Positions 27,962 to 61,630 of a stretch of 64,000 nt of DNA are shown here, piece after piece. The notes below the pieces were generated by a model that had not been told where the DNA came from, searched no databases, and saw nothing but the letters and a program-made list of their open reading frames with translations. The position numbers and the translations under genes are program-made. How positions within the stretch are numbered: the stretch's first letter is position 1; every line of letters begins with the position of its first letter. The DNA lies in the IMG/VR virus record IMGVR_UViG_3300010396_000007, positions 1 through 64,000 of that record. One strand, 5' to 3'. The stretch is from a virus.

Positions 27962-27997
27962 AAAAAGAAGGCCCCCTTTTCGGGGGCTTTTCCTTTT
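27962..27997. terminator. Bidirectional intrinsic terminator at the junction of the two arms
   Basis: GCCCCC/GGGGGC stem flanked by A- and T-tracts. Confidence 0.85.
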
Positions 27998-41998: not shown

Positions 41999-42567
41999 TA
42001 CGCGAATCCACTTGAGCCGTTGTTAGAGATAGTAAAGCCAGTGATGGACTCAGAACCTTTAACAACAAACGTGATACGATCTGTAGGCGACCAAGTTGTT
42101 ACTAAAATCATTTCAATAGTAGATGGGAAAGGAATTGGGAACGTAACAGCTATTGTACCAGCATTAATATCAGTCGTTACTGCACCCCATTGTGTTATAA
42201 TTCCGAGTGGGTCTTTCTCCCAAAACCCATTAGCATTAGACCCTTGACTAAATCCTGCCGTTGGGTCCGTGTTTGTGATATTAGTGACTTTAGTTGTGTT
42301 CGTAACATTGGTTACAGATTGCACAAGATTATTTGGTGGAGTAGGAGGGATAATTCTATTCTGGGGAACTACCCCTCCATTGAAATAAGTTCGCAAAGAA
42401 TCACTTGATGCGTGCCATATAGGAGGTATAGGGGTACGCATATAAACACTCTGCCCCGGTGCTGCTTGGGATGTTTGTGCAAATCCTGTTAAAGAAGTTA
42501 CGGGCGCTGTAAGAACAGGCTCGTAACCGCTAGTATCAGCATTTGTTGATTCTTGTAAACTTGGCAT
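41977..42567 (-). CDS. Tail-fibre-related protein (gp53-like C-terminus)
   Basis: GIITQWG, VTFPIPFP, YWEAKG. Confidence 0.7.
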   Translation of the reverse strand: MPSLQESTNADTSGYEPVLTAPVTSLTGFAQTSQAAPGQSVYMRTPIPPIWHASSDSLRTYFNGGVVPQNRIIPPTPPNNLVQSVTNVTNTTKVTNITNTDPTAGFSQGSNANGFWEKDPLGIITQWGAVTTDINAGTIAVTFPIPFPSTIEMILVTTWSPTDRITFVVKGSESITGFTISNNGSSGFAYWEAKGR

Positions 42568-45338
42568 TATAACTCCTGCAAATATGTACCAAATACGGTC
42601 ATTGTTAGAAGTTCATTCATAACGGTGTCCGCAGGACTAAATATAACCTGTATCTGCATGTGTCTCAGTGTTGCTAACACATTTTCGTTATCCGATAAAT
42701 AGAAACGCTGACTATAAAAAGATTTGCTTGTGGGCAAATTAGGAGGGTCAGATTCCCAATTTTTCAGAATATCAATTGGACCTGTATAATAAGGCAATGC
42801 CTCATCAATGAGTACGCCCAATGAGATAGGACTTCCAACTCTTACAGAATCGGTAACAATATGTGCTACTTGTGCTACTTGTCCCGGCTGAGTAAGTACC
42901 GCAGAGCCTACAACTGCATATGCCGAATATGGTGTTCCGTTATCTGCATACACACTAAGGTCACGTTGTAAAAGTTCACCTGTTGACACAGGACCAAGTA
43001 ATAGTCTATGTACACCCGGAGATACCTCAATTGATTGAACCGCTTTGACACCGCCACTAATTTGTGCGAACGGTGACCATGTATATCCTGTCTCCGGTGC
43101 CGGTGTAGTCATCAACCTGTACCAGCCGTTTGCTCCGTCACATACGTACCAAGCTTGATCTTCACCTTGGACATGCCATGCAACGTAAGCATTCTTAGGA
43201 TTCCACGATGTGCCTAATCCGCCATTATTTAAGCGAAGTTGGTCACCAATCGGGAATCCTGCGTATACTGTACCGGCTGACGGGTCTAGAATGAGGAATT
43301 GATTGTCTGTAGTAAACAGACCAATAATTGCTCCATTTACATCTAAAGCATTATAACTAAGTAAACCAATGCCCGGTAGCAAGGGTTGAGAGCCTTGAAT
43401 TGGACTTGTTTGTGTTCCTAGTCCTTGTATAATGTATACATCTGAAACGGTAAATACTAACATTCCAGAAGTCGTAGGAACCAAGCGCGTAACTAAGGAT
43501 GGCATGGAGTCAAAATTCAAAGGACTTGACCCATTTAGTCCATTGCCTTCCGGCGCATCTGGTCCTGAAGTCCAATAAACTACGTTTCCGATGCTGTACC
43601 AAATTCTATTTAAGTGGTATGTAAGATTAATAGCCCCTGTTGCCGGAACAGTGTTTTCTCCCGCTATCGGTGCAGAAATTAGGTTATTCAAACCCGTGTC
43701 TTGAGTATTGTCCCAAAATCCGTGTATTAAATAATCACTTAATCTCATAGTCCAAGTCGTACCGTCTTGCCCCGGAATTAAAAACGGCGTGGCCTGTCCA
43801 TCGGTTGTTCTAAAAATAGCAACATAATCAGCTTGGAAATCCAGTGTCGTACCGGGGATAATCGTATGGGGCGCTCGTACTATAGACGGCAGTCCCATTC
43901 CCGGTGCTAGATAAACATTCTGCGCTCCATTGAAATTACCAGTAGGAGGAGATAGGGGCGAAACATTCGAGTAAGTATCATCCAGACTGTTTACCAAAGC
44001 TACGCAGTATTGATATCCCCCATTGGAAGGACTCAAAGCACTCTGGTAAATCATTGTCCATGTGTTACCACCATCTACAGTCGTATCACCAATGATCTTT
44101 GACCAATTAGGCTCCGGTCCAGCCGGTGTACCTGCAAATGTCAATTGCTGAAGATTGTTGTTTGAATCAATTACAGTTTGTCCTGCTATATAAGCTGTGC
44201 CCGCTGTCCAATTTGGGAAGGGCAGCGTTCCTACAGAACCTAATCCCGCATAATTCTGGTTAAACACAGTCGAAATAGGAATCGTGGGAGTATTTGTAAT
44301 CCCCCAGTTTTTGACTAGAGGACCATGATTCACCCAAAGAACCGTATTATCAACTGTCCAACCGCCTTTATATTTATTAGGAGCAATAGCTACCACGCCC
44401 GGTTGAACGTTACTGAATGTAGGAATTGTAGCACCAGATTTGGGTGTACCTCCGTTAAAAGCAATTACGTTGCCAGTAGTTGCAGTTGTTGTAACAGGAA
44501 GTGTAAAAGGGCTAATGGTAGGAAAAGGCCAAGTCGTTGTCATACTTGTACCTGAAACCGTAAGTACTGTTACATTTGCAAAAAGCTCTTGTCCTACTAT
44601 GATACCAGAATCCCAATATGTAATAAACGGTGCTGCGTCAATTGATACTGTATCCCCTGCTGCAAAAAAGTTGGATAGAGTTATACTAGATGTTAATGTA
44701 ATAACAGGCCCGCTAGTGGTAGTGGGGGCAGCAATCGAGTATGACACTAAAGGTGCAATAGTACCAAGAAGCTGTTGTATATTTCCGTTTGAATCTACAA
44801 TGAAAGTAGTTAAGAATGGGGTAGTTTGCTGCCCGTACAGAAAGTTAGCCTGCCAAGTCTGCAAGGTTTGCATGTACTTTTTATTGTCGATTCCATTTGC
44901 AAAGTAGAGAATATTTCCTACCGACTGCATATAAGTTTGACCAGCACCAATACTCTTATCAAAAATATCCGTCTTAACTCCACCAGACAATGAGTACAAA
45001 GCGTTCGCTTGGTCAACCATCAATATAATTGTTTCTGTATTCTGGTCAAATAGGCGAAATTCATAGAAGCGATCTACACCTGTGTAACTGTTAGAATCGT
45101 ACACTGATGTACCGGGTCTACGCGCTAGTGTCAATTTATTTGTAATTTCAACGTTCAATCCGGCAATAAGGGCATCCCCTGCTTGACCATAAAACTTTTC
45201 GACAATACGGCTGGTAGTGGCATCTCTTAAAGGGGAACGATTTGTCCATAAACCACTAGACCAACGACCTGTATACAAAGGCGCAAACTTCGGCTGCTTA
45301 CTTGGTGTTGCTCCTGCTAGTCCGAGGTTGTTACTCAA
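42567..45338 (-). CDS. Tail tube/nozzle (stabilisation) protein
   Basis: LARRPGT N-terminal motif; beta-propeller-like; TTG start with GAGGAAGG SD. Confidence 0.65.
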   Translation of the reverse strand: MSNNLGLAGATPSKQPKFAPLYTGRWSSGLWTNRSPLRDATTSRIVEKFYGQAGDALIAGLNVEITNKLTLARRPGTSVYDSNSYTGVDRFYEFRLFDQNTETIILMVDQANALYSLSGGVKTDIFDKSIGAGQTYMQSVGNILYFANGIDNKKYMQTLQTWQANFLYGQQTTPFLTTFIVDSNGNIQQLLGTIAPLVSYSIAAPTTTSGPVITLTSSITLSNFFAAGDTVSIDAAPFITYWDSGIIVGQELFANVTVLTVSGTSMTTTWPFPTISPFTLPVTTTATTGNVIAFNGGTPKSGATIPTFSNVQPGVVAIAPNKYKGGWTVDNTVLWVNHGPLVKNWGITNTPTIPISTVFNQNYAGLGSVGTLPFPNWTAGTAYIAGQTVIDSNNNLQQLTFAGTPAGPEPNWSKIIGDTTVDGGNTWTMIYQSALSPSNGGYQYCVALVNSLDDTYSNVSPLSPPTGNFNGAQNVYLAPGMGLPSIVRAPHTIIPGTTLDFQADYVAIFRTTDGQATPFLIPGQDGTTWTMRLSDYLIHGFWDNTQDTGLNNLISAPIAGENTVPATGAINLTYHLNRIWYSIGNVVYWTSGPDAPEGNGLNGSSPLNFDSMPSLVTRLVPTTSGMLVFTVSDVYIIQGLGTQTSPIQGSQPLLPGIGLLSYNALDVNGAIIGLFTTDNQFLILDPSAGTVYAGFPIGDQLRLNNGGLGTSWNPKNAYVAWHVQGEDQAWYVCDGANGWYRLMTTPAPETGYTWSPFAQISGGVKAVQSIEVSPGVHRLLLGPVSTGELLQRDLSVYADNGTPYSAYAVVGSAVLTQPGQVAQVAHIVTDSVRVGSPISLGVLIDEALPYYTGPIDILKNWESDPPNLPTSKSFYSQRFYLSDNENVLATLRHMQIQVIFSPADTVMNELLTMTVFGTYLQEL

Positions 45339-45855
45339 TTTGACCTTCCTCAAGCATAACAACTTTAGCCCACTCACCGAGTAAAATAAGTTCTTCTAAT
45401 GAGGCATTGCTTTTCATTGTGTTAGCTTTATTTGATATTATGTGAATATTACCTTTAACATATCCTCCATTCGGGTCAATTCTATCTAAGCTAGGAGAAT
45501 TTGGCAAAGGACCATGAGGCCCAAAGTTTTTCACAATCGGTATATTAAGTATTGGACAATGTGTAGGTATTTCGATATCCTCTACTTTTATCGTAAATTC
45601 TATACCCCTTTGATTAGCACGCTGTCTAGCAGAGGCATAAACCGCTATACGATTATCTTCCTTGGTTTTTTGAATTCGGTGTTTATTGGCTTGTTTATTA
45701 ATTTTTTCTCTAACGCCGGGTTTAGATTTATACAGATCACGAGACTTTTTGTTACACACTTTACAATAAGACCGTCGCTTTTCACCGCGTCCACATTTGG
45801 TGTAACTTGTAAATGTTTTAACTTCTCCGCATTTTGAACATTTCTTAGTTTCCAT
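45331..45855 (-). CDS. HNH-type endonuclease
   Basis: KKCSKCG; CPIL..SPSLDRID..GYVKGN. Confidence 0.82.
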   Translation of the reverse strand: METKKCSKCGEVKTFTSYTKCGRGEKRRSYCKVCNKKSRDLYKSKPGVREKINKQANKHRIQKTKEDNRIAVYASARQRANQRGIEFTIKVEDIEIPTHCPILNIPIVKNFGPHGPLPNSPSLDRIDPNGGYVKGNIHIISNKANTMKSNASLEELILLGEWAKVVMLEEGQIE

Positions 45856-45866
45856 AAATATTTCCT

Positions 45867-46211
45867 TTAAGCGTTTGGCACCCAAGCACCGATATCAAAT
45901 GGACTAGGTGAGCTTAAAATCTGCTGTACATTCGGTCCCCATACGCGCTCTCCGTTTTTAGTATATGCGGATACAGTATAAAAGGAACCGGATGGTGTTA
46001 TTAAATCGTTGGGCCAAAATGAATGTGCAGGGGACGTTACAACATTACCATTAGAATCTAATGGAACCTTCACCACAAGCCCTGAGCAAATCAAAGTACT
46101 TGTATTCACAACTTCATCTTGATTTAGCTGAAGTAAAAGGTAACCATTAGCTAAAAGGTTACCTTCACTATCGGCAAAACTTCCTCCAACAATCTGATTA
46201 ATTGTTGACAT
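45867..46211 (-). CDS. Small virion protein, paralogue of 52298-52579
   Basis: Shared GYLL..LN.D, LD..GN, FWPN..I.PSG..Y. Confidence 0.65.
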   Translation of the reverse strand: MSTINQIVGGSFADSEGNLLANGYLLLQLNQDEVVNTSTLICSGLVVKVPLDSNGNVVTSPAHSFWPNDLITPSGSFYTVSAYTKNGERVWGPNVQQILSSPSPFDIGAWVPNA

Positions 46212-46590
46212 GTTGATACCTCTTCAAATAATTCTCTATGCCCCTAACCATATCAGGATCATCAAGTAGAAGTCCGATAGCGAAATTGCACTGCTTACAT
46301 AATAAACCACGCACTTCATTTGTAGCATGATCGTGGTCAATATATTCCGCTGGTCTTTTACATTGCTCATTCGCACATTTTCCGCCCTGTAATTCATACA
46401 TTTCTTTATATTATTCAGGGGTTAAACCGTATCGCCATTTGAGCATGTATTTTTGACGAGCCTCACGAGTAGCTTCAGGATGATCTTTCTTCCACTTAGC
46501 TGCTCGCTCGCTCCGTTTTCTTTTACGTTCCGGGTCTTGGTTACGCTTATGTTCGTATTCTTTACGTACTTCCGCATCTTTGTGCGACAT
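46198..46590 (-). pseudogene. Endonuclease VII gene with in-frame TAA
   Basis: MSHKD...YGLTPE*YKEMYELQGGKC...DHDH..VRGLLC; stop at 46411-46413. Confidence 0.75.
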
Positions 46591-46865
46591 TACGCCCCCG
46601 GTTTATTATCTTTATTCTTTAACCAATCAGCAGCTTTATTGGCCCCGTAAAGAGGACCACATGTGGTTACAATAAAAGTAGCCCCTGAATTAAGAAAGTT
46701 ATTGAATTGTTCTACTGTGATGCGCTTTTGATAAGTAGCTATACCGAAAGAAATACCTACCCCCAAAATGAACGCAACTAGCATTGTTATATGGATACGA
46801 GTTGAAGACCCGCTTCCATCAGGTTCGCTCCAAATAGAACGAACCCATGTCCAAAATTGATTCAT
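46590..46865 (-). CDS. Holin-like two-TM protein
   Basis: SSTR motif, two hydrophobic segments, basic tail. Confidence 0.55.
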   Translation of the reverse strand: MNQFWTWVRSIWSEPDGSGSSTRIHITMLVAFILGVGISFGIATYQKRITVEQFNNFLNSGATFIVTTCGPLYGANKAADWLKNKDNKPGA

Positions 46866-46873
46866 AAAATCCT

Positions 46874-48898
46874 CTATTGTACTACTTGTCCTGATAAACT
46901 AAGGACTCCAGAAAATGATGTTCCGGGTGTAACAGGCGATGTTGCCGGATAGCAGGTATTTGCATCAAAAGCGAGCACCGTTGACGATCCATTCGTCAGT
47001 CCACCCAGGACATTCAGATAGCAGTTAGCCGCAGGGTTCAGCCACGCATGGCCTGCGGTGTTCGCAATGTTGCCGCCTGTGACTTCCGGGCCGATACCGG
47101 GATAGGGAGCCCCCGAGCCCGATGGAAACACCCACCATGGCGGCGTGCCGCTTCGGTAAAGCGATGGGTAGCTTGCATACGACGTTGACGGGCTTGCGAG
47201 TCCGGGGTACGTCGAGGCGGTTGAGGCTGTTTGGCAGGCATGAATCCCCGCTGTGACCGCATCCCAGTTGCCGCAAAGCATGGAGGAATCAGACGGCCCA
47301 GCGTTCGCCACCACATCGTTAGGCACAGGGCCGGGAGGGCTGAGAGTTCCCCCGTAGCAGGTCGAAGAATACTCGCTTCCAATCTGGCCGGTATCTCCCA
47401 GAAGAAACACCATCCCATTGTTGCCGGTTCCGCAATCAGTAGTCGAAGCCATTGCATAACTGTAAGTCGAGGCATGGCCTCCGTACCCGAGAACATTCAT
47501 CACGTAATTCAGGTACCGGGCATAGCCCATCGTGTTCGTGGAAAGAAGATTCTGCGTCTTTGCGGCTGTCGAGGTCGAAGGATCGAAGCCGGAGAGAGCG
47601 TTGCGGAAGATCGTGTTTGCAAACGCTGTGCCGTGGATCGAGTCTTCCGTGTGGCACGTTCCGATGTTGCCTTCCCATAGGTTGTAGTAGTCGCCTGCAT
47701 TGTGGTGGAACTGATCGCATTGCTGCCACGCCGGGTCGCCGTTGTCGTAAAAGTTATCGACGGCATAGTGATAGCCGAAGACGTTCCCGGCGCCGCCCTC
47801 CATGATTTCGCAGGTTGCGATTTTCTGGCAGATGTTGTTCTCTGCCAGCGAATCCGAGGATTGCCAGAAGTCCACCCCGTAAGCTTCTGACGATGGACTG
47901 GACCCATACTCGTAAGAATCTCTGACCGTGATGTGCGAGGAGGCTGCAACCCATACATGCTTGTGCATGGCGGTTGAAGTCGTCGTCGCGTTGACCATCG
48001 CAACATTTTTGATCCATGAGTTTGTGGCCCAAATGTACTGAATCATCGCCGCGTCGGACGTGCTTCCGGTGATTCCCTGTGTATCTACCGTCAAGTTCTC
48101 AAGGCCGAATCCGGTCAAGGGCAGCGACGAAGAAAAGGTCGCGAGAGGGTTTTTAGAGTTCGACCAGTTCGGCGCATAGAGAGCCGGGGTAAAGGTGACG
48201 GTTGATCCCGAGATTCCCGTCACGGTCACAACCTGAATCTCCGATTGCCCCGGAAAGACGTTCCCGCCGTCACCCTGCTGCGAGTAGGTTGTGGACCCGT
48301 TGAAGAAGGCGTTCCCGGTGTCGGTTGAATCGTCAATTTGATTAAAGGAAATCAGCGAACCGACATGTAGATTCGAGATTGAGCCCGAGCACACACTTGA
48401 CCCCGAGCCGCAGATATTTGAGACAGGAGCCGAGCCTAAAACAACGGAAGTTGAGCCCTGTGCCATGCCGCTTGAAACAGTCAGCACGTTGGCTGCGTAG
48501 CCAATGGCTCCAGAGTCGCCGTTGTAGAGACACATCGCCACAGGGCCAATGCCGAGGCAGTTGGTTGAGGTTCCAGTGAAAACCAGCTTGGTTGAGTTTG
48601 GCCCCGCACCTCTGAGCGTCACGTTCGATGCTGTCGAGACGAGCGAAGATGACCAGTTGTACGTCCCTGCCGCCAGAGAGACGGTTTGCCCTGCCGTGCA
48701 ACTGGAAAGCGCCGACTGCACAGCAGCGGGTGTAGCGGTTGAAGTCAGCGATGCGCAGATCGTAGTACGCGCTGGGATGGTTCCCGCGCCTGCGTTCGAC
48801 CATCCAGCGGAGGGATAGCGATTCGTATTCAGCAGCCCAGAGGGAGACTGTGCCATCGCAGGGAGAGAGACGAGGAGCAGGATGAGAAGTTTCTTCAT
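46874..48898 (-). CDS. Exported pectin-lyase-like beta-helix protein
   Basis: Signal peptide; V.LAAGTY..NVTLRGAG; Asn ladders; GC-rich. Confidence 0.75.
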   Translation of the reverse strand: MKKLLILLLVSLPAMAQSPSGLLNTNRYPSAGWSNAGAGTIPARTTICASLTSTATPAAVQSALSSCTAGQTVSLAAGTYNWSSSLVSTASNVTLRGAGPNSTKLVFTGTSTNCLGIGPVAMCLYNGDSGAIGYAANVLTVSSGMAQGSTSVVLGSAPVSNICGSGSSVCSGSISNLHVGSLISFNQIDDSTDTGNAFFNGSTTYSQQGDGGNVFPGQSEIQVVTVTGISGSTVTFTPALYAPNWSNSKNPLATFSSSLPLTGFGLENLTVDTQGITGSTSDAAMIQYIWATNSWIKNVAMVNATTTSTAMHKHVWVAASSHITVRDSYEYGSSPSSEAYGVDFWQSSDSLAENNICQKIATCEIMEGGAGNVFGYHYAVDNFYDNGDPAWQQCDQFHHNAGDYYNLWEGNIGTCHTEDSIHGTAFANTIFRNALSGFDPSTSTAAKTQNLLSTNTMGYARYLNYVMNVLGYGGHASTYSYAMASTTDCGTGNNGMVFLLGDTGQIGSEYSSTCYGGTLSPPGPVPNDVVANAGPSDSSMLCGNWDAVTAGIHACQTASTASTYPGLASPSTSYASYPSLYRSGTPPWWVFPSGSGAPYPGIGPEVTGGNIANTAGHAWLNPAANCYLNVLGGLTNGSSTVLAFDANTCYPATSPVTPGTSFSGVLSLSGQVVQ

Positions 48899-48901
48899 AA
48901 A

Positions 48902-49204
48902 TTATTTACCAATTAAATGCCAGAGTCGTGCTCGCAGCGTTGGGATTGGAAGCGGGCGTAATGGTAGCGACCCGGCGCCCACCCAGTTCAAGCCCTTGTT
49001 GTCCACCACAGTAGAAGGCCATGTTACACTTCCTGAAGTTGAAGGAATGTGTAGCGTGTCACCGGGAGAGGCGGCAGTGATACAATCCGTTATGTCAGTT
49101 TGGGCGGCTGAGGCGGCTGTCCAATTGGGACTCGAACCTCCACATACCGCCATAGCTGATGCAGTACAGAGTAACATCAACAGAAGAAGCTGAAGAGTTT
49201 TCAT
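48902..49204 (-). pseudogene. Truncated N-terminal remnant of a second beta-helix gene
   Basis: Signal peptide plus CITAASPGDTLHIP..KGLNWVGAG, then a non-homologous tail. Confidence 0.55.
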
Positions 49205-49215
49205 GCTTGGCTCCA

Positions 49216-52200
49216 TTAGTAATTAAATGCCATAATCACGTTTTGTCCTATTCCGCCAGAGTTTGTGTAGGGCCAACTATTTCCCATTCCGCCAATAAAT
49301 GTTCCAGCGGCTGGAACAGCATAGGATTCACACGCGTTAGTTGCAATTGATGGACCCACGCCTTGATCGCTCCAATCCAGATGTGCTAAATTCCCGGCAA
49401 TCATGCCCGGAAATCTTCCCTGTTGATCCGCCCATCCGCCGCAGAACACGACGAATGTTCGCTGCGTGGTTGTAGTCGAAGCGGAAGTCATGTACGACGT
49501 TCCAGTTCCAATACCGTTAGTTGTTGGAGTTAAATTTGTAGTTGGACTGGCAAGTGAATATTCCACCACCGTCATAGACATAAACGTGTCCGCTGAGTTA
49601 GGCGTACAAGTGAAAGTAGTTGAACCTGCCGATGTAGCTGCCCATGCGGAACCAGTTGACTGCGACCCTCCTGCTATGCCGGTATTTTGATTCCAAGAAA
49701 GCGTAGGAGTGCTCGACACTGTAAATGTTCTAGTTGACCCACTACGGCAAAAGACAACAACAGTATGATTCGCTGCCAGCGTAATCGCAGGACTTGTAAT
49801 TGATGCGCTAGAAGGTGTGGTCAAGCCGACATTTGTTCCCTGCACAAAGGCAGGTACAGTACTACCTCCTCCACCAGAACCTAACACAATATGACCACTC
49901 ACATCAGTAGCCAAAGATGAAAGATTTGCGGCTACAGTGGCGCCATTAACTTCATTTGCGTTGACGATGCCTGTACCCGTAGGACCAAATGAGCCGCCAG
50001 TACCTATATTAAGAGCGTTAGTGTTAGTACCAGATGCGATAGCTGACCAAGCAGTTGAACCGCTTCCCGGACAACCTGTAGATTGAGTACAGATAAGAGA
50101 AAAAGCAGCCCCTGCATTAGACACTTCAGCATTACCCGAAGCATCAACAGCATAAACCGTTGTAGTAGCAGACCCAACTACAGGAGCAAACCCTGTAGAA
50201 TAAGTCATATTCATTTGCGTTGAACTTGTAGTGCATGTACTTACAAATGCACCAGAAGCATTTACTTCCCATCCACATCCATTAGCATCAGCTTTGAATG
50301 GTATTTCCGTAGAGCCACTGGCAGTATAGACATGGAATAATACTCCCGTTCCGGTATTAGACGTAGTATCAGTCAGGCCAAATAAGTCACTTGAACCTGT
50401 GGCTGCGTTGTATGTAAACAGACTTGTATCTGCTCCCATTGCCAATGAAAGGTTGCCAGTTGGATTTGTTAGTGCAGACCAAGCCGAGCTTCCACCAGTA
50501 TTGCAGTCTGGACCAGTGTTTGTAATATTTCCGGCAGTGTCTATGTGTAAACATGAATGACCTGAGGCGGCTGCTATTGCAGTTGCCCTGAGTCCAGCAG
50601 AAATCAAGTTGCCACTTGCATCTACATACATTGCACCTGTTACGCAAAACGGGGCGAATGAGGGGCAAATAGCATTCCCGTTAAACACGCGAAGAGTTGG
50701 TACATACATACCAACAGCGTGGATTTCGGCATTTATTGTTCCTAAATCTGGAGAACGAAAATCAAATATAGGATCACTTAAAGACCCTGCCCATGTATAA
50801 CCAGCTACACTCGATCCGGGAGGAGCAGCCCAAACCCAAGGTTGGTAATTGACAGGAGTTCCTGCGCCGTCATTTATAGCGGCTGCATTAGCATCAGCGA
50901 CCCTTCTTTGAGAACCCGTTTGTTGTGGTTGGTTGGAAGGATCAGTTCCGTCCATTGTTGGTGTGGATGTATCCACTATAATGTCCCAATATTGACCGCT
51001 GGCAGCGTTAGCTACGGTCTTGTACATACCGAATAACGCCTGTCGATTGTAGTTCCAAAGCTGCCAAGCTGTAGCACACCCTATAGTTTGGTTGAACCCT
51101 TGTTGCGACACTCCAGCGCCGACAACTACTATGTAACCATCAGCGTGAGCTTGCGCGAACAAACTTTTGTATGCCGCCTGAACTGTAGCTGTGGCAGTAC
51201 AAAGCTGGTCGTCGTTTCCGTGGTCATTAATAATCAGGTAAGCGGGACGGCCTCCATTTGCCGCAGGACTGAGCGCGTGGTAGTTCACGGTATAGTTACT
51301 GGCAGCGCCGGGTATTGTTACCGGATTTGGAATAGCTGTATACGTTCTACTTACGGCCCCAGAAGGAAATGTTGCACGGTTTGTTGTCATAAATGGTGCG
51401 TAGCCCATTGCTGACTCAGCATAACCGCAACTTGAAGAACAAGGACTTTCTGTAAGAGTTCCAATATCTATTTGAAATGTAGTACCGCTAAGACCTGTGG
51501 ATAATACCTTGAAAATGTTGTAACCAGTTCCAAAAAATACTCCGGTGGGAGCGCCAAAAGACCATCCCGTAAGGAAGCGCGTATTTATCCAGTCTCCCGC
51601 TGAGAAGTTGTTAGTTCCGCTGTTGACGAATGAAACAACAGTACCAGTTTGAGTCCAACTGTTAACTGCTACATGTGGTGCTAGCACTCCTAAATCATCA
51701 TCGTTTATTGATGTTCCAGTGAATACGAAAATAGCATTAGAAGGTATAGTACCTCCTCCTGTAGATGCAGCTTGTAAATTAATTAATCCCGGAGACGGTG
51801 TAATTATCACAGAACCATCTGTTGACTGTAAATTAATGGACCCGTTTAGGCCATTTAGAAGCGTAACGCCAGCAACGCCAGTTCCAATATCAGAAAACAT
51901 AGTTCTTACGTCTAGGATACTTGTAATATTTCCACCACTAGCTACAACTACTGCGATTGGAAATTGACCAGAAGTAAAATTAGAAGTGCTAGATGCTAAG
52001 GCACCTGTGGTAGAATTAAGGTAAACATAGTTAGTCCCATTTACCATTGTTATTGTTTGCGCACCGTCTGTTCTATAAGTGGAACCAAAGAATGACGTAC
52101 CTGCGCTCACATTCAGGGTAAGACCAGTTGATGCGGCAGTAGGCCAATAACCCGGTGCCACGCCGTTTACCAATTTTGCATTTGTGGCATAAATAGGCTG

Positions 52201-52290
52201 TGTTGGGGGTAAATCATTAGCTTGTGGTTGCTGAGAATAAACTAACGATGCCACGGCAAGCGTCAATGATGCAATGATCTTTTTAAACAT
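49216..52290 (-). CDS. Mosaic tail fibre/spike-like protein with signal peptide and SGNH-like domain
   Basis: GTSI...GND esterase-like motifs; GVTLLNGLNG linker; repeated SAWSAL/AI. Confidence 0.6.
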   Translation of the reverse strand: MFKKIIASLTLAVASLVYSQQPQANDLPPTQPIYATNAKLVNGVAPGYWPTAASTGLTLNVSAGTSFFGSTYRTDGAQTITMVNGTNYVYLNSTTGALASSTSNFTSGQFPIAVVVASGGNITSILDVRTMFSDIGTGVAGVTLLNGLNGSINLQSTDGSVIITPSPGLINLQAASTGGGTIPSNAIFVFTGTSINDDDLGVLAPHVAVNSWTQTGTVVSFVNSGTNNFSAGDWINTRFLTGWSFGAPTGVFFGTGYNIFKVLSTGLSGTTFQIDIGTLTESPCSSSCGYAESAMGYAPFMTTNRATFPSGAVSRTYTAIPNPVTIPGAASNYTVNYHALSPAANGGRPAYLIINDHGNDDQLCTATATVQAAYKSLFAQAHADGYIVVVGAGVSQQGFNQTIGCATAWQLWNYNRQALFGMYKTVANAASGQYWDIIVDTSTPTMDGTDPSNQPQQTGSQRRVADANAAAINDGAGTPVNYQPWVWAAPPGSSVAGYTWAGSLSDPIFDFRSPDLGTINAEIHAVGMYVPTLRVFNGNAICPSFAPFCVTGAMYVDASGNLISAGLRATAIAAASGHSCLHIDTAGNITNTGPDCNTGGSSAWSALTNPTGNLSLAMGADTSLFTYNAATGSSDLFGLTDTTSNTGTGVLFHVYTASGSTEIPFKADANGCGWEVNASGAFVSTCTTSSTQMNMTYSTGFAPVVGSATTTVYAVDASGNAEVSNAGAAFSLICTQSTGCPGSGSTAWSAIASGTNTNALNIGTGGSFGPTGTGIVNANEVNGATVAANLSSLATDVSGHIVLGSGGGGSTVPAFVQGTNVGLTTPSSASITSPAITLAANHTVVVFCRSGSTRTFTVSSTPTLSWNQNTGIAGGSQSTGSAWAATSAGSTTFTCTPNSADTFMSMTVVEYSLASPTTNLTPTTNGIGTGTSYMTSASTTTTQRTFVVFCGGWADQQGRFPGMIAGNLAHLDWSDQGVGPSIATNACESYAVPAAGTFIGGMGNSWPYTNSGGIGQNVIMAFNY

Positions 52291-52297
52291 GTGTCTC

Positions 52298-52579
52298 CTA
52301 AACTGTGACCTTGCTAGGTCCTGAAATTAATTGCCCATTAGCGCCATAAACTGACTGTATATAATAAGTACCCGATGGGGATATACTTGAATTGGGCCAA
52401 AATGTCGGACTACCTGTTATATTTCCACTTGCATCAAGAAGAATTTTCGTAGTCTGTGAGGATATTTGCGTATCGTTTACGGAACCATCTGTATTCAATT
52501 TAAACAGAAGGTAGCCACTGATAACAGGGCTACCATCGGGGTTCTGAAAATTCGTAACTGTTAGTGGAATTCTAGGCAT
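52298..52579 (-). CDS. Small virion protein, paralogue of 45867-46211
   Basis: Shared motifs. Confidence 0.65.
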   Translation of the reverse strand: MPRIPLTVTNFQNPDGSPVISGYLLFKLNTDGSVNDTQISSQTTKILLDASGNITGSPTFWPNSSISPSGTYYIQSVYGANGQLISGPSKVTV

Positions 52580-53502
52580 TAGAGTGCTATTCTCCCCTGT
52601 CGTCCTTGGGCAATGTTATCTGTCATAACAGTTGACGCCCCTGTAATCTGCTGCCAATTGTTGAGCATAATATTGACTTCTGTTTCCGTCAAACCTTCGC
52701 TTGTGCTCAAAAGATTAGCAATGAATTTTTGGTTTGCAAACTGAAAACGAGTATCATCTGCGAACATATACATTAAGGCTAGAAATCCCCAATTATACAA
52801 ACGAGAATATTCATCCGGTATTGGTGCCCATGTATCTTGTAAACTAGCAATGACAGGAGGCTTCTGTTGTATCGTAATGGACACTGGATACGCCTTGTCA
52901 GGGGCAGGCATCAAACGAAATGTGGTATTACCGTTGCCGTCGTCAAATTCTGCTGAAATACTGTGAGGACGTGCTTGAGCGGAATCCAAAGCTAAGTCAA
53001 TTTTAGGGCTAATTTGTACCCATGCAAAATTACATGTATTTTGGTTTACATCTCGTACAGATGCATTTTCAATCCAACCGAAGTTGTAAGTTGTATTAAA
53101 ATGAGAAACACCAATGGACCCCATATTTGTCCATACGGCTGTGCCGTCTGCTGTTGTTCCTCCTACAGTCTGGTTGAATGTGGGCAGAGAGCTACCAGTT
53201 GTACCGGCTGTAGTTACTTGTTGTGAAAAACCATTACTATCTACAAGAACATATCCTACTCTAACCGCTGTGTTAGCAGTCCAATTAAAAATTGTATAGT
53301 CTTGCACGCCTGCTTGTGTAACAAAACCAATGACGGCGCGGTTCCATCTCCATTTGAAAGGAGCGCCAAGGATGGTCTGTAAGATAATATTCGCACTGGT
53401 AATGGCAGGTTCTAAATAATTTCCGATAGCCACGGGGCGCTGAAATATAAAACGCTTAACCCACTCAGTAGACTGTAATAATGTATAGGAAGAACTCGCC
53501 AT
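52579..53502 (-). CDS. Head-tail adaptor-like protein
   Basis: WRWNR, QDY, P.PD, PIPD; paralogue of 53563-54918. Confidence 0.6.
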   Translation of the reverse strand: MASSSYTLLQSTEWVKRFIFQRPVAIGNYLEPAITSANIILQTILGAPFKWRWNRAVIGFVTQAGVQDYTIFNWTANTAVRVGYVLVDSNGFSQQVTTAGTTGSSLPTFNQTVGGTTADGTAVWTNMGSIGVSHFNTTYNFGWIENASVRDVNQNTCNFAWVQISPKIDLALDSAQARPHSISAEFDDGNGNTTFRLMPAPDKAYPVSITIQQKPPVIASLQDTWAPIPDEYSRLYNWGFLALMYMFADDTRFQFANQKFIANLLSTSEGLTETEVNIMLNNWQQITGASTVMTDNIAQGRQGRIAL

Positions 53503-53515
53503 TTGGCTCCTTAAT

Positions 53516-53555
53516 AAAAAAGACGGCAGGCGGCTAAAATGCCAAAGCCTGCCGT
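53516..53555 (-). terminator. Intrinsic terminator
   Basis: ACGGCAGGC/GCCTGCCGT stem plus U-tract. Confidence 0.7.
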
Positions 53556-53562
53556 TAGGTGT

Positions 53563-54918
53563 TTACCAACCTGTCCATGGACCCCATGGTTGTGCCGGAG
53601 TTACAGGGTTGTAACCAAACCCAGTGTCCATTACCATTCCTCCGGGACCCACGTAGAAACCAAAATCATCTGGTTCTCTATCGTATTGACGCACCGCTTT
53701 ATCGAGAGATTCCAACCACCACATTTTCTCTTGCTGATATTTCGCGCGTACTTTTGGGTCTGGATTTCGTCTGAAGCATTCTGCAAAAAAGCCCTGTTTA
53801 AAAGCCCATTCCATTGCATCAGGGATAGGGTTCAAATATTGTTGTAAATTATAAAAACGCGGTGCTACCATCTGTCCAACAGCTTGAACTGCCCATACGA
53901 CGCCGGATTGCGGCGGTACTGGGCTAAGTCTCATGCCTTGTCCTTTAGGATTAATTGCTGTCCATACACATGTTCCATCAACCACCGTAGTAGGTAGGAT
54001 ATTTGGATTACGAAGTGTAGGAAATGTTGGATTAGACGGCCACACAGGTTCGGTACTACCACAAACGCCGTATGTCGTCAAGCACCACAAGTTTCCGTAA
54101 GGGTCCGTTATCGCTGTAGTAGCGTTATACGGAGTAACCAACGTTCCCACTGGGTTCGTAAAGATTACACCCGGTCCCGGATTCTGCAATCCTGTAAGGT
54201 CCGGTCCTGCTACCGTTGTCTGCCCCGAAGGGAAGCCAGCAGTAGGGCCTAGAGGCGCTGCACCCCACGTCCCAGTCTGAAGCATACTATTTGGCAACCA
54301 TGCGATCTTAGCCATGTATGTGCCCGCCTGATACGTTAGTAAAAGGTCTTTGTCTACTTCTAGAGGGAAGTTCTGTTTAGGAACAGATGTTTGATTGATA
54401 TTTACTGCCCATGCCGATTCTAGCCAACCAAGGTTAACCAAACCGGGGATGAAATAATCTTGCTGCAAACTATTAGTGTAGAACACAGGTAGATTATAAC
54501 GATTCCATTTCCAGTTGTAGGGCTGCCCTCCGGGTCCTCCGTTAATCAATGCCTGCATTACGTCATTGGCGATTGATAAGGCGGGTGCCATAGAGAATCC
54601 GCCCGTAGCCAGCGCGGGGGCAACATCCCCTAACGTTGCCGCATCGTCTACAACTTCCTGCAAACGAATAGTTGAATTACCATACACCACACACTGAGGA
54701 GTCACACTCGCAAAGATAATTGCAAAGCCTGTTATTCCCGCGTCCGACGCTACTAAATAAAGGTTACTTGCATCATATTTAAGTGGAGTTTGGAACCAAA
54801 CGGCACCGCCTGACGTAAATTCAAAGATAACAGAACCGGGCGTAACTCCAAGATTATGTGGTAGAGTAAACGGTCCCGGTGCCGAAGTTGTGAACGCTAC
54901 TTGTGTTTGAGATGCCAT
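53563..54918 (-). CDS. Head-tail adaptor-like protein with extra N-terminal domain
   Basis: WKWNR, QDY, GWLESA, PIPD. Confidence 0.6.
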   Translation of the reverse strand: MASQTQVAFTTSAPGPFTLPHNLGVTPGSVIFEFTSGGAVWFQTPLKYDASNLYLVASDAGITGFAIIFASVTPQCVVYGNSTIRLQEVVDDAATLGDVAPALATGGFSMAPALSIANDVMQALINGGPGGQPYNWKWNRYNLPVFYTNSLQQDYFIPGLVNLGWLESAWAVNINQTSVPKQNFPLEVDKDLLLTYQAGTYMAKIAWLPNSMLQTGTWGAAPLGPTAGFPSGQTTVAGPDLTGLQNPGPGVIFTNPVGTLVTPYNATTAITDPYGNLWCLTTYGVCGSTEPVWPSNPTFPTLRNPNILPTTVVDGTCVWTAINPKGQGMRLSPVPPQSGVVWAVQAVGQMVAPRFYNLQQYLNPIPDAMEWAFKQGFFAECFRRNPDPKVRAKYQQEKMWWLESLDKAVRQYDREPDDFGFYVGPGGMVMDTGFGYNPVTPAQPWGPWTGW

Positions 54919-54929
54919 TTTTTTTCCTC

Positions 54930-55151
54930 TTAACAACCGCAGTCTGCGAATATGATAACAACCCCGGTAATACCGGCGTCTGAAGCTACTAGGTAAAGAT
55001 TTGTTGAATCATAGCGCTGTGGCTGAAACCACACTGTACCGCCATCAGTGAATTCAAAAATAACAGTAGAGGGAACTATACCTAGATTGTGAGCTAGAGT
55101 AAAGTTCCCCGGTGCTGATGTATTGAATGGGATAGTAGCGTTTGCTTGCAT
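54930..55151 (-). CDS. Small protein duplicating the N-terminal domain of 53563-54918
   Basis: TSAPG.FTL.HNLG..P..VIFEFT.GG.VWFQ..YD..NLYLVASDAGITG. Confidence 0.75.
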   Translation of the reverse strand: MQANATIPFNTSAPGNFTLAHNLGIVPSTVIFEFTDGGTVWFQPQRYDSTNLYLVASDAGITGVVIIFADCGC

Positions 55152-55159
55152 TTTTCCTC

Positions 55160-55759
55160 TTATCGAAGTGTCGTAGCTTTAGTCACTTCGCGGTAGTATT
55201 GTCCGTTGTCGGAGAAGCGGAAAGTTACAGACCCAGAGGGCACATTACGTGTCTGGAAATTAACTGCCGTCTCGTATTCTACAACTGCCTTCAGGAACAA
55301 TGCCTCACTCTCGTAATCTTCCTTAACGGGTGGTTTCCAAGTCTTACCGCAACGCAGACAACGTACCCACATATCGCCGTTAGCGAACGTGTGCTTCAAT
55401 ACAGCGTACTGAGAGTCGTCTCCCTGTCCTGCAACCACGCCTTGTGCTCCGTTTCCACCTTTACGATGATTGCAACGTTTCTGAGCAGCAGTATCATTCT
55501 GTGCAAGCTGCTTCAATGTTTGACCATTGGTAAGGCTGCGCTGTCTCTTATTCTCACGCTTTAATTCGCGCTCTGCTAGACGTTCCTCTACGTCCTGTAG
55601 GTTAGCGGTACGTTCTTTTAGCTCAAGTTGCTTTGCAGCAAGCTCTGCTTTCTTAATTTCAATATCAAGTAGCTCACCCTCTGTGAGTACTTTCTTTTTT
55701 TCGGGAGCAGGACTTCCGTTCTGCTTCGGCTCTCCTGCAATGTCATTTAAATTACTCAT
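55160..55759 (-). CDS. Hypothetical protein (coiled coil plus CNH/CxxC)
   Basis: ORF with SD. Confidence 0.65.
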   Translation of the reverse strand: MSNLNDIAGEPKQNGSPAPEKKKVLTEGELLDIEIKKAELAAKQLELKERTANLQDVEERLAERELKRENKRQRSLTNGQTLKQLAQNDTAAQKRCNHRKGGNGAQGVVAGQGDDSQYAVLKHTFANGDMWVRCLRCGKTWKPPVKEDYESEALFLKAVVEYETAVNFQTRNVPSGSVTFRFSDNGQYYREVTKATTLR

Positions 55760-61107: not shown

Positions 61108-61630
61108 TGTTCTCCTCCAGTCGATTCACAAAACTCTTCCACTCTTGTAGTGTTAGGTTTCGTTTAATTGTGTTAGCTTTTTGGCTAACTACCCATACAT
61201 TTCCTTTAACATAACCCAAATTTGGATTAAAACAATCAAGTGATGGGCTATTATTTGTAAGTTTACCACCTTTTTTAGATATAGGAATATCCAATAAAGG
61301 GCATACATCAGGAACTACAATATCCTCAACTTCTATATTAAAAGGAATATCACGTAACTTTGCTCTTGATTTAGCATTTTTCCATGTTTTGTATTCGGGA
61401 GTTGTGGATAATCCATGGGTAATTCTAGACTCCCCTAACCGTTGTAACCCTATGCAGCCGCAACTTGTTGTATGTCCGCTCTGAATCGCTGCTCCACGTC
61501 CAATAAATTTATTCCCACAAGAACAAACACAGTGCCAAAATGACCCTTGTTTGTTCGAATGACTATAAGACTTAATCGTTATATGGTTAAATACCATGTC
61601 GGATAAGTCTATATACTCTCCTTTTCTCAT
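61085..61630 (-). CDS. HNH-type homing endonuclease
   Basis: WHCVCSCG..SCGC..THG; SPSLD..GYVKGNV. Confidence 0.82.
   Translation of the reverse strand: MRKGEYIDLSDMVFNHITIKSYSHSNKQGSFWHCVCSCGNKFIGRGAAIQSGHTTSCGCIGLQRLGESRITHGLSTTPEYKTWKNAKSRAKLRDIPFNIEVEDIVVPDVCPLLDIPISKKGGKLTNNSPSLDCFNPNLGYVKGNVWVVSQKANTIKRNLTLQEWKSFVNRLEENSGKFTAN

What the first reader, a model, noticed from the sequence alone, without database searches (positions are those of the whole stretch)
45867..52579. Signal-peptide, Cys-paired fibre/spike proteins inside the virion module, bracketed by two paralogous small proteins
Seen: three consecutive genes (52290, 49204, 48898) start with Sec-type signal peptides and contain many closely spaced Cys pairs, yet sit between adaptor and nozzle genes where receptor-binding proteins are expected; paralogues 52298-52579 and 45867-46211 lack signals and flank them. 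Known: tailed phages normally assemble in the cytoplasm. Inference: receptor-binding proteins may be exported, disulfide-folded in the periplasm and attached at lysis, or act as secreted matrix-degrading enzymes. Either would be unusual.
Basis: partly seen in the sequence, partly recalled or inferred. Interest (0 to 1): 0.7.

Follow-up and report, generated by a model that had tools for sequence, protein, structure and literature searches.

The report
Phage tail fibre with export signal
An uncultured soil phage puts a bacterial secretion signal and paired cysteines on the variable fibre encoded in the middle of its tail genes, so this host-recognition part probably folds in the periplasm, not in the cytoplasm where tailed-phage particles are built.

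Summary
In a complete 98.7-kb virus record, three consecutive ORFs between an SU10-adaptor-like gene and a large nozzle-position gene begin with canonical Sec/SPase-I leaders. The two large ones each carry 16 cysteines in eight consecutive near pairs; the other virion proteins are almost Cys-free.

The three are not equivalent:
- The 1024-aa protein is native. It has a leader, a conserved 115-aa N-module and a variable rest.
- The 104-aa ORF is the 5' remnant of a resident 433-aa gene.
- The 674-aa gene is a recently captured, GC-rich copy of a leader-bearing beta-helix family, most likely of Acidobacteriaceae; one cellular copy lies in a polysaccharide-synthesis cluster.

The leader is conserved. 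141 of the best 150 representatives of the fibre N-module (708 clusters) keep it, usually cut as A|QQPQ. Rare leaderless forms start exactly at the predicted cut and lack the module's Cys pair.

The flanking small paralogues have no leader and fold like the N-terminal attachment domain of phage fibres and spikes.

Export and oxidative folding are very likely. Attachment to the particle at lysis is inferred, not shown.

This scan has noted the same phenomenon on other DNA at least ten times. Six literature searches found no description of the route.

The parts
54930..55151 (-). 73-aa leaderless ORF, a free copy of the N-terminal ~65-aa domain of the next gene ('p457N' domain)
   Evidence: 67% identical to residues 7-76 of the 457-aa protein. 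A p457-like stretch lies in the gene immediately upstream of the fibre gene in 25 of 49 fibre ORF rows from other viral contigs; 21 of these match this N-terminal domain.
53563..54936 (-). 457-aa leaderless virion-module protein (p457), a candidate carrier of the fibre docking site
   Evidence: 74-81% identical in 8 related loci. No Pfam, PHROGs or PDB sequence match. Gene neighbourhood with the fibre N-module.
52579..53502 (-). 307-aa adaptor-like protein
   Evidence: PF24175 SU10_adaptor, E 8e-6, 26.9 bits against a cut-off of 27. 61-69% identical in relatives.
52298..52579 (-). Small paralogue A (93 aa, no leader, no Cys): free-standing fibre-attachment-type beta-sandwich
   Evidence: AF2 model with pLDDT 89.2. 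Best structural matches are residues 1-90 of the cyanophage A-1(L) tail fibre (Z 8.7, rmsd 2.0, 80 aligned), its neck fibre (Z 8.0), a chain of the Ur-lambda tail tip complex (Z 7.3) and the P22/Sf6 tailspike head-binding domain (Z 5.9-6.4).
49216..52290 (-). 1024-aa fibre/spike-like protein with leader, native to the phage (GC3 0.325)
52234..52290 (-). Leader of the fibre (residues 1-19), predicted cut S19|Q20
   Evidence: A leader is kept in 141 of the best 150 representatives. The junction is [A/G/S]|QQ in at least 90 of them.
51886..52233 (-). Conserved N-module of the mature fibre (residues 20-135)
   Evidence: 30-43% identical among 7 family fibres whose remainders are unrelated. 708 representative clusters at E<=1e-3, always at the N-terminus of proteins of 122-2488 aa. 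Weak hit to phrog_31611 'tail collar protein', E 0.0023.
48902..49216 (-). 104-aa ORF: 5' remnant of a resident 433-aa leader-bearing gene (likely start 49204, leader 49148-49204)
   Evidence: Residues 10-83 are 78% identical to residues 5-78 of P0278 (433 aa), which comes from a 65.7-kb contig of a close relative.
46874..48898 (-). 674-aa leader-bearing protein of a right-handed beta-helix family; recent acquisition (leader 48851-48898)
   Evidence: GC3 0.636 against 0.26-0.37 in the neighbouring genes. 73-76% identical to genes of two unrelated phage contigs. 62% identical to a gene inside a polysaccharide-synthesis cluster of an Acidobacteriaceae MAG. 5 of 41 family members match PF13229 and 4 of 41 match PF12708.
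46874..46933 (-). Last 19 codons plus stop of the 674-aa gene, inherited from the replaced resident gene (recombination joint)
   Evidence: 18 of 19 residues are identical to the C-terminus of P0278. Homology to the donor-type genes ends at residue 650.
46590..46865 (-). 91-aa membrane protein (one clear and one weak hydrophobic segment), a conserved member of the cassette; function unknown
   Evidence: 57-78% identical in 6 related loci, including L006, which lacks a fibre. No family match.
46198..46590 (-). Endonuclease VII-type homing-endonuclease gene in two ORFs (59 aa and 67 aa), inserted here
   Evidence: PF02945, E 1e-16, for the 67-aa ORF. Absent at this position in relatives, where the membrane-protein gene abuts paralogue B.
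45867..46211 (-). Small paralogue B (114 aa, no leader)
   Evidence: 41% identical to A. 53-71% identical homologues lie directly before the nozzle-position gene in 8 of 10 related loci and as the N-terminus of a 233-aa protein in the other two. An Atlas lead points to PF08400 phage_tail_N clusters, score 0.92.
45331..45885 (-). HNH-type homing endonuclease, inserted here
   Evidence: phrog_3322, E 1e-37. Four paralogues elsewhere in the genome.
42567..45377 (-). 936-aa nozzle-position tail protein
   Evidence: 57-69% identical in 10 related loci. The identity as 'nozzle' is by position only.

Best explanation
The 1024-aa protein is the phage's exchangeable host-recognition fibre or spike. It is made as a Sec pre-protein.

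Proposed steps:
1. The leader (residues 1-19) takes it across the inner membrane.
2. Signal peptidase I cuts at S19|Q20.
3. The mature protein folds in the periplasm with up to eight disulfide bonds.
4. Its conserved N-module (residues 20-135) then docks on a leaderless part of the particle built in the cytoplasm. Candidates are small paralogue A, which has the fold of a fibre attachment domain, or the p457N domain. Docking would happen once the lysis proteins open the inner membrane and the two compartments mix.

The 674-aa protein is a leader-bearing polysaccharide-active beta-helix enzyme of a mostly cellular family. It was captured recently with its own leader and replaced the middle of a resident 433-aa leader-bearing gene; the 104-aa ORF is what is left of that gene. 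It most likely cuts the host's exopolysaccharide, either as a free periplasmic or released enzyme or as a second spike.

Shown: the leaders, their conservation, the Cys pairing, the modular build, the gene replacement and the fold of paralogue A.
Inferred: actual export and cleavage, disulfide formation, the docking partner, and the timing of attachment.
For: 1. Canonical leaders on three adjacent ORFs. The false-positive rate of my rule is 0.6-1.4%.

2. Conservation inside the phage family. In 8 of 10 related loci the first gene after the adaptor/paralogue-A position has a leader followed by QQPQ/QQYQ and the same N-module, with unrelated C-terminal parts.

3. Conservation at large. The N-module finds 708 representative clusters, 454 of them at E<=1e-10. 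141 of the best 150 carry a hydrophobic leader. Five start as leaderless M-[A/S]-N-P-Q or similar, exactly at the predicted mature end.

4. Leader and disulfide go together. The N-module's conserved Cys pair is present in 126 of 141 leader-bearing representatives and in 0 of 5 true leaderless ones (Fisher p 3e-5). The mature Cys count is even in 110 of 141.

5. Sixteen Cys in consecutive near pairs, against near-zero Cys in the portal, the adaptor-like protein and the 700-aa and 958-aa proteins.

6. Fibre-like context.
- The gene sits inside the tail module.
- Paralogue A folds like the N-terminal attachment domains of fibres and spikes.
- In 63 other viral loci the gene immediately upstream of the fibre carries a p457-like stretch in 25 of 49 rows and an A/B domain in 9 of 49.
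- One long leaderless fibre (L046, 1438 aa) sits in the same slot.

7. Precedent. Cellulophaga phage phi10:1 gp091-gp094 have A/G|Q leaders and are annotated in the record as structural proteins found by MS/MS.

8. For the 674-aa gene:
- GC3 0.636.
- At least 329 homologues, many on large cellular contigs, two named Terriglobia or Terracidiphilus.
- A 62% homologue inside a polysaccharide-synthesis cluster.
- Leader plus Q at +1 in 87 of 94 leader-bearing family members.
- A chimeric 3' end and a 5' remnant of the replaced gene.
Against: - No experiment shows export, cleavage, disulfides or presence in the virion. No SignalP was run.
- Relative L006 has paralogues A and B and the membrane protein but no leader-bearing fibre. 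The fibre is therefore dispensable for building the tail, and A and B have a role without it.
- The leaderless L046 fibre keeps the N-module Cys pair, so the leader-disulfide link is strong but not absolute.
- The 674-aa protein and the other second-position leader proteins of relatives share no anchor module.
- The A-type fold is a common beta-sandwich. Fibronectin-type domains score Z about 6 in the same list.
- The fibre itself could not be modelled (pLDDT 40), so its trimeric fibre or spike nature rests on sequence architecture only.
- MS detection in phi10:1 is a record annotation. I did not see the underlying paper, and co-purification is possible.
Confidence: 0.55

Rival explanations
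1. The leader-bearing proteins are exported but never join the particle. They act on the infected cell's own envelope. They could trim or remove exopolysaccharide or receptor from the periplasmic side or after release, so that progeny are not trapped on debris or on infected cells (a receptor-destroying role) or so that superinfection is blocked.
For: - The 674-aa family is mostly cellular and leader-bearing, and one copy sits in a polysaccharide-synthesis cluster.
- Second-position leader proteins of relatives are diverse sugar-type folds without a shared anchor, for example a Kelch propeller in L007.
- L006 builds its tail module without any such protein.
- A second leader-bearing pair (885 aa and 140 aa) lies outside the tail module at 69478-72557.
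Against: - The first protein keeps a 115-aa N-module across 708 clusters while everything behind it is swapped. That is the signature of an anchor to a conserved partner.
- Its gene is tied to leaderless small virion-module genes in many phage backgrounds.
- A leaderless form occupies the same slot (L046).
- Leader-bearing neighbours in phi10:1 are annotated as MS-detected structural proteins.
Confidence: 0.3
2. The leader is an uncleaved signal-anchor. The fibre is held at the inner membrane, as SAR endolysins are, and is released or handed to the particle when the membrane is depolarised at lysis.
For: - The hydrophobic cores of the first-fibre leaders are rich in Ala, Ser, Thr, Gly and Leu.
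- A conserved small membrane protein is encoded in the same cassette.
- Phages are known to use this trick for endolysins (my own knowledge).
Against: - The c-region is a standard SPase I site with small residues at -1/-3, often a Pro at -4 to -6, and Gln at +1.
- Leaderless variants begin exactly at the predicted cut, which marks it as the domain boundary.
- T4 RI, long taken for a SAR protein, has a cleavable leader according to the title of PMC8385771. I saw that paper only as a row in the listing.
Confidence: 0.1
3. The hydrophobic N-termini have no export role. They would be chance features, mis-called starts, or a structural helix of a cytoplasmic fibre.
For: Two clear false positives of my rule in related loci. 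No trained predictor was available.
Against: - The leader is conserved in 141 of 150 representatives with a fixed junction.
- It covaries with the Cys pair.
- Cys counts are even.
- The stop-to-start geometry leaves no alternative starts.
Confidence: 0.03

Closest known systems
Cellulophaga phage phi10:1 gp091-gp094 (GenBank KC821618)
   Same: Consecutive proteins encoded after the tail genes, each with a canonical leader and Gln at +1 (SLSA|QTTD, SFG|QNIR, VSA|QTVI, LNA|QTVE). A leader-bearing pectate lyase gene follows them. The record annotates gp091-094 as 'structural protein, based on experimental MS/MS proteomics'.
   Different: A Bacteroidota siphophage with no sequence similarity to the proteins here: tblastn of the N-module against 50,697 phage records found nothing. 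These proteins have few or no cysteines (0-2 each). The record does not remark on the leaders. I did not see the paper behind the record.
P22 gp9 / Sf6 gp14 tailspikes, and fibres with an N-terminal attachment domain (cyanophage A-1(L) tail and neck fibres; a chain of the Ur-lambda tail tip complex)
   Same: A particle-binding N-terminal beta-sandwich, followed in the tailspikes by a sugar-cutting part. Paralogue A matches these N-terminal domains over its whole length (Z 8.7 to 5.9).
   Different: In those proteins the attachment domain and the distal part are one leaderless polypeptide made in the cytoplasm. Here the attachment-type domain is a separate leaderless 93-aa protein, and the large variable protein has its own different N-module and a secretion signal.
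Pantoea stewartii WceF (PMC7949094; passages read)
   Same: A bacterial, exported, tailspike-like trimeric beta-helix enzyme encoded in an exopolysaccharide cluster, and it cuts that polysaccharide. It is the best functional analogue of the cellular relatives of the 674-aa protein.
   Different: WceF uses a Tat signal and has a P22-like head domain. The 674-aa family has a Sec-type leader without twin arginines, and no such head domain was detected. No sequence similarity was tested or found. The proposed direction of transfer differs: the WceF authors speculate phage to bacterium, whereas here GC3 and the remnant ORF suggest cell or temperate phage to this phage.
Phage proteins already known to use Sec: SAR endolysins, spanins, T4 antiholin RI (PMC8385771, title seen in the listing only), small lipoprotein exclusion factors
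   Same: Phage late genes with host-type export signals that act in the envelope.
   Different: These are lysis or exclusion factors, not large modular fibre or spike proteins encoded inside the tail module.
Bacteroidetes Q-rule (PMC5837995, abstract and passages; PMC10653852, abstract) and Q-rule proteins of Porphyromonas gingivalis phages (PMC10367356, passages)
   Same: Gln at +1 after the cut in 6 of the 7 SPase-I-type leaders of this phage, in at least 93 of 141 fibre-family leaders and in 87 of 94 members of the 674 family. The P. gingivalis paper notes five phage genes of unknown function that obey the rule.
   Different: The rule is described as specific to Bacteroidetes, whereas the inferred host here is Acidobacteriaceae. 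The P. gingivalis paper reads its proteins as modifiers of the host surface, not as virion parts.

Membership tests
Sec/signal peptidase I substrates | Tripartite leader: basic n-region, 7-15 uncharged hydrophobic residues, small residues at -1 and -3 | tested here: met
   All three ORFs meet it. Control rates of the rule are 0.6% and 1.4%. SignalP was not available.
Sec/signal peptidase I substrates | Leader conserved in homologues while its sequence drifts | tested here: met
   141 of 150 fibre-module representatives. 94 of 110 members of the 674 family with an aligned N-part. 8 of 10 related loci.
Sec/signal peptidase I substrates | Translocation and cleavage demonstrated | not testable with these tools
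   Needs fusions, fractionation or N-terminal mass spectrometry.
Phage tail fibre / tailspike receptor-binding proteins | Conserved N-terminal anchor module with exchangeable distal part | tested here: met
   Residues 20-135 are conserved at 30-43% among 7 fibres with unrelated remainders. The module lies at the N-terminus of proteins of 122-2488 aa. The central part is shared mosaically with L002 and L012 proteins.
Phage tail fibre / tailspike receptor-binding proteins | Encoded within the tail module next to attachment partners | tested here: met
   Synteny in 10 loci. Upstream p457-like or A/B-domain gene in 34 of 49 rows.
Phage tail fibre / tailspike receptor-binding proteins | Trimeric fibre or beta-helix fold | tested here: inconclusive
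   The AF2 model of the whole protein has pLDDT 40.1. No Pfam or PDB sequence hit.
Phage tail fibre / tailspike receptor-binding proteins | Physical presence on the virion | not testable with these tools
   Uncultured phage.
Right-handed beta-helix polysaccharide-active enzymes (PF13229 / PF12708), for the 674-aa protein | Match to a beta-helix family model | tested here: inconclusive
   The window's own protein has 0 Pfam families at E<=0.01. 5 of 41 relatives match PF13229 (best 3.1e-7) and 4 of 41 match PF12708. The family profile hits only the N-cap of mannuronan epimerase and pectinesterases at E 0.011-0.034.
Fibre/spike N-terminal attachment domain (P22 gp9 head-binding type, A-1(L) fibre N-domain, PF08400-like), for paralogues A and B | Same fold over the whole domain | tested here: met
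   Z 8.7, 8.0 and 7.3 to residues 1-~90 of fibre and tail-tip proteins, and 5.9-6.4 to P22/Sf6. Foldseek probability 1.0 but E 0.015-0.05. The fold is a common sandwich, so this is resemblance, not proven homology. No sequence-level hit.
Fibre/spike N-terminal attachment domain, for paralogues A and B | Binds the tail at the adaptor/hub junction and carries a distal part | not testable with these tools
   Would need a structure of the tail or a binding assay.
SU10-type head-to-tail adaptor (PF24175) | Score at or above the curated cut-off | tested here: inconclusive
   26.9 bits against a cut-off of 27, E 8e-6, covering profile positions 71-175 of 194.
Bacteroidetes Q-rule substrates | Gln at +1 of the SPase I site | tested here: met
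Bacteroidetes Q-rule substrates | Host belongs to Bacteroidota and cyclises the Gln | tested here: not met
   Named cellular relatives of the captured gene are Terriglobia, Terracidiphilus and Acidobacteriaceae. Cyclisation is not testable.

The most novel reading that the evidence does not exclude
Two-compartment assembly of a tailed phage. The head, the tail and a small leaderless anchor are built in the cytoplasm. The host-recognition fibres are secreted, cut after the leader and disulfide-bonded in the periplasm. The particle captures them only when the lysis proteins breach the inner membrane. The route would be common rather than a curiosity, given 708 clusters for this one N-module. It would let phages reuse the host's own periplasmic sugar-cutting enzymes, leader included, as plug-in modules.
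Probability: 0.45. Interest if true: 0.85.

Novelty: new variant of a known kind. Interest (0 to 1): 0.7.

Why it matters
Textbook assembly of tailed phages is wholly cytoplasmic. If fibres mature in the periplasm, several things follow.
- Their folding depends on host Sec, signal peptidase and disulfide machinery.
- Virion completion is coupled to the lysis step.
- Recombinant production of such receptor-binding proteins or depolymerases will fail unless they are exported.
- Host-range prediction and annotation pipelines that discard signal-peptide proteins as 'non-structural' will miss the key specificity determinants of many soil phages.

The gene replacement seen here also shows a direct path by which a leader-bearing polysaccharide enzyme of a mostly cellular family becomes phage equipment.

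Tried and rejected
- Complex prediction of three copies of paralogue A with three copies of the fibre N-module (residues 20-140): verdict 'no answer', score 0.00, controls not run. It says nothing either way.
- AF2 on the whole 1024-aa fibre with a 14-row alignment: pLDDT 40.1, unusable for fold search.
- An SGNH/GDSL esterase reading of the fibre's central domain. I suspected it from motifs by eye (GTSINDDD, INDHGNDD). Only 1 of 5 homologues gave a weak Lipase_GDSL_2 hit (E 0.017), and the PDB profile search gave only a spurious antibody hit. Dropped.
- Megablast of the region and tblastn of the N-module against 50,697 phage records: no match.
- Viral-contig search with the whole fibre: no match.
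- Searches for the genomic context of the leaderless representatives P0243 and P0216: nothing useful.
- Sequence searches of PDB with paralogues A/B, the 936-aa protein, p457 and the 674-aa protein: nothing significant.
- Atlas look-up of the 91-aa membrane protein: only unnamed viral clusters. Its role (holin or other) stays open.
- Promoter and terminator scan of 42000-55500: nothing standing out inside the operon.
- Literature. Six full-text searches found no paper describing Sec-exported tail fibres or spikes of tailed phages. PMC5723332 only counts signal peptides in two Bacteroides phages. PMC6199706 says phage DGR targets lack them. PMC13412088 attributes its dsbA effects to receptors. 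The library lacks most subscription journals, including the original Cellulophaga phage paper.
- Look-up of earlier scan notes by sequence: nothing.

Full report
**What the window is.** The window is bases 1-64000 of a 98,677-bp IMG/VR virus record with direct terminal repeats, rated complete. It is an uncultured phage. Megablast of the region finds nothing among 50,697 phage records.

The late genes run on the minus strand in this order:
- large terminase, portal and major head protein;
- several unknown proteins, then a 73-aa ORF and a 457-aa protein ('p457');
- an adaptor-like protein (PF24175, 26.9 bits against a cut-off of 27);
- the finding itself;
- a 936-aa protein in the nozzle position;
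- a 196-aa protein with a gp53-like fibre C-terminus;
- a 958-aa internal protein with a transglycosylase domain.

**The observation.** All three have a basic n-region, an uncharged hydrophobic core and an A/S-x-A/S cut site.

No trained predictor was on hand, so I wrote a rule.
- It flags 8 of 147 ORFs in the genome.
- It flags 2 of 318 internal Met-started segments and 92 of 6750 shuffled N-termini.
- It also produced two likely false positives in related loci.

The two large proteins each hold 16 cysteines that fall into eight consecutive close pairs. The portal, the adaptor-like protein and the 700-, 958- and 936-aa proteins hold 0-3. The small flanking proteins are true paralogues (41% identity, E 6e-20) without leaders. 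The three leader proteins are unrelated to one another.

**The three genes have different histories.**

*The 1024-aa gene* has the composition of its neighbours (GC3 0.325).

*The 674-aa gene* has GC3 0.636, against 0.26-0.37 around it.
- It is 73-76% identical to genes in two unrelated phage contigs, where it also follows fibre-like genes and precedes lysis genes.
- Its family has at least 329 members, many on cellular contigs of up to 1.58 Mb. Two are named Terriglobia and Terracidiphilus.
- A 62% identical copy in an Acidobacteriaceae MAG lies among a UDP-sugar dehydrogenase, a flippase-glycosyltransferase fusion, a polysaccharide deacetylase and an O-antigen-ligase-like gene.
- Relatives match right-handed beta-helix models: 5 of 41 match PF13229 and 4 of 41 match PF12708. 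The window's own protein matches none.

*The 104-aa ORF* is 78% identical to the first 78 residues of a 433-aa leader-bearing protein (P0278) from a close relative. The last 19 residues of the 674-aa protein are 18/19 identical to the end of that same protein.

A foreign gene with its own start and leader therefore replaced the middle of a resident gene. I read it as a leader-bearing exopolysaccharide-processing enzyme of a mostly cellular family. It is functionally comparable to WceF of Pantoea (PMC7949094, passages) and was captured by phages.

**The fibre and its leader are ancient and conserved.** Ten viral contigs carry a 57-69% identical homologue of the 936-aa protein. Their module reads: adaptor, paralogue A (or a protein containing that domain), zero to three leader-bearing large proteins, a ~91-aa membrane protein, paralogue B, then the nozzle-position protein.
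- In eight of the ten, the first large protein has a leader, then QQPQ or QQYQ, then the same ~115-residue module. After that come unrelated sequences of 321 to 1278 aa.
- L006 has no such protein.
- L011 is cut off by the contig end.

Searching residues 1-140 against 1.84 billion representatives gave 708 hits at E<=1e-3.
- In the best 150 the match is always N-terminal, in proteins of 122-2488 aa.
- 141 have a hydrophobic leader, with an [A/G/S]|QQ junction in at least 90.
- 9 have none. Five of these begin M-[A/S]-N-P-Q or similar, exactly at the predicted mature end. Three look like truncated gene calls. One is an internal repeat.

The module's conserved Cys pair is present in 126 of 141 leader-bearing forms and in none of the five true leaderless ones (p 3e-5). 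The mature Cys number is even in 110 of 141.

One counter-example turned up in viral contigs: a 1438-aa leaderless fibre (L046) that keeps the pair. This window's own fibre lacks that particular pair but has eight others.

Gln at +1 is also the rule in the 674 family (87 of 94) and in 6 of the 7 SPase-I-type leaders of this phage.

**Is it a virion part?** The arguments are indirect.
1. The build, a constant N-module followed by swappable parts, is that of anchored receptor-binding proteins.
2. Paralogue A models well (pLDDT 89.2). Its best matches are the first ~90 residues of fibre and tail-tip proteins: A-1(L) tail fibre Z 8.7, its neck fibre Z 8.0, a chain of the Ur-lambda tail tip complex Z 7.3, Pan3 6.8, and the P22/Sf6 head-binding domain 5.9-6.4. 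The fold is a common sandwich, so this is resemblance only.
3. In 63 further viral loci holding the N-module, the gene directly upstream carries a p457-like stretch in 25 of 49 fibre rows. In 21 of those it is the ~65-aa N-terminal domain that this phage also has as a free 73-aa ORF. It carries an A/B domain in 9 of 49 rows. Near-identical loci were not removed from these counts.
4. The leaderless L046 fibre sits in the same slot.
5. In the cultured Cellulophaga phage phi10:1, gp091-gp094 have leaders with Gln at +1 and are annotated as MS/MS-detected structural proteins. I saw the record only, not the paper.

Against this, L006 shows that the tail module works without such a fibre. The second-position leader proteins have no shared anchor.

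**Mechanism I commit to.**
- Export by Sec, a cut before Q20 and oxidative folding in the periplasm: about 0.9 likely.
- Capture by the cytoplasm-built particle through the N-module when the inner membrane is opened at lysis: about 0.55.

The main rival is that these are non-virion envelope-acting enzymes (0.3). An uncleaved signal-anchor (0.1) and an artefact (0.03) trail. The 91-aa membrane protein is a fixed cassette member of unknown role. It persists in L006, so it is not simply a fibre accessory.

**Novelty.** Six literature searches found no description of Sec-exported fibres of tailed phages. The nearest is a remark that some P. gingivalis phage proteins of unknown function obey the Bacteroidetes Q-rule (PMC10367356, passages). 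The library misses most subscription journals.

This scan has noted the same phenomenon at least ten times on other genomes, including an Acidobacteria podophage. Those notes gave me the Cellulophaga and Q-rule leads, which I checked myself.

What this window adds:
- a family-wide count of leader conservation;
- leaderless natural variants that start at the cut site;
- the link between leader and Cys pair;
- a caught-in-the-act replacement of a resident gene by a leader-bearing gene of a mostly cellular family;
- the attachment-type fold of the flanking paralogues.

Noticed in passing
G000 69478-72557 (outside the window; L004:5478-8557, minus strand): A second pair of leader-bearing genes lies upstream of the terminase region, flanked by homing-endonuclease genes. 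One is 885 aa with 18 Cys in nine near pairs and a LASA|QTPV site. The other is 140 aa with 2 Cys. The 885-aa gene has GC 0.514, above the genome level. Neither has a Pfam or PHROGs match.
   Followed up: partly
window 6971-7303, 22911-23384, 23385-23684 (plus strand, early region): Three small early ORFs with export signals. Two are SPase-I type with A|Q sites (ALA|QTPA, GNA|QIKS). One has a canonical lipobox (ILTG|C). They are candidate envelope-acting or exclusion factors.
   Followed up: no
window-wide leaders; families P0001-P0120 and P0131-P0277: Gln at +1 after the predicted cut is near-universal in this phage and in two large protein families whose named members are Acidobacteriota. 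The published Q-rule is described as specific to Bacteroidetes. This may be a proteome-wide rule in Terriglobia as well, or only family inheritance.
   Followed up: partly
window 45331-45885, 46198-46590, 27996-28610, 32215-32700, 61085-61630; L004 3941-4570, 9150-9716, 13857-14396: The genome is studded with HNH and endonuclease VII genes. Two sit inside the fibre cassette, where relatives have none. The endonuclease VII gene at 46198-46590 is split into 59-aa and 67-aa ORFs.
   Followed up: partly
window 46874-46933 and C-termini of P0003-P0005, P0278, P0279: Members of the 674 family and the replaced resident gene end in similar short tails (…PPPP-N-L/V-T-G-T-V/L-Q/H; …LSLSGQVVQ). This may be the microhomology used for the recombination, or a functional C-terminal tag.
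   Followed up: no
window 42567-45377 residues 389-506, and 52579-53502 residues 73-182: The nozzle-position protein and the adaptor-like protein share a ~115-residue domain (33% identity, E about 5e-8). It is also seen in relatives.
   Followed up: no
L007:7836-9341: The second leader-bearing protein of a relative is a Kelch-repeat beta-propeller (Kelch_1, E 6e-26). The exchangeable leader-bearing slot therefore accepts quite different sugar-binding folds.
   Followed up: no
L002:2156-11275: An unrelated phage contig has four consecutive leader-bearing proteins (1233, 721, 831 and 184 aa, all with A|Q sites) between a long, possibly tape-measure-type protein and the lysis genes. Residues 660-1130 of its 1233-aa protein are about 50% identical to residues 136-596 of this window's fibre.
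   Followed up: partly
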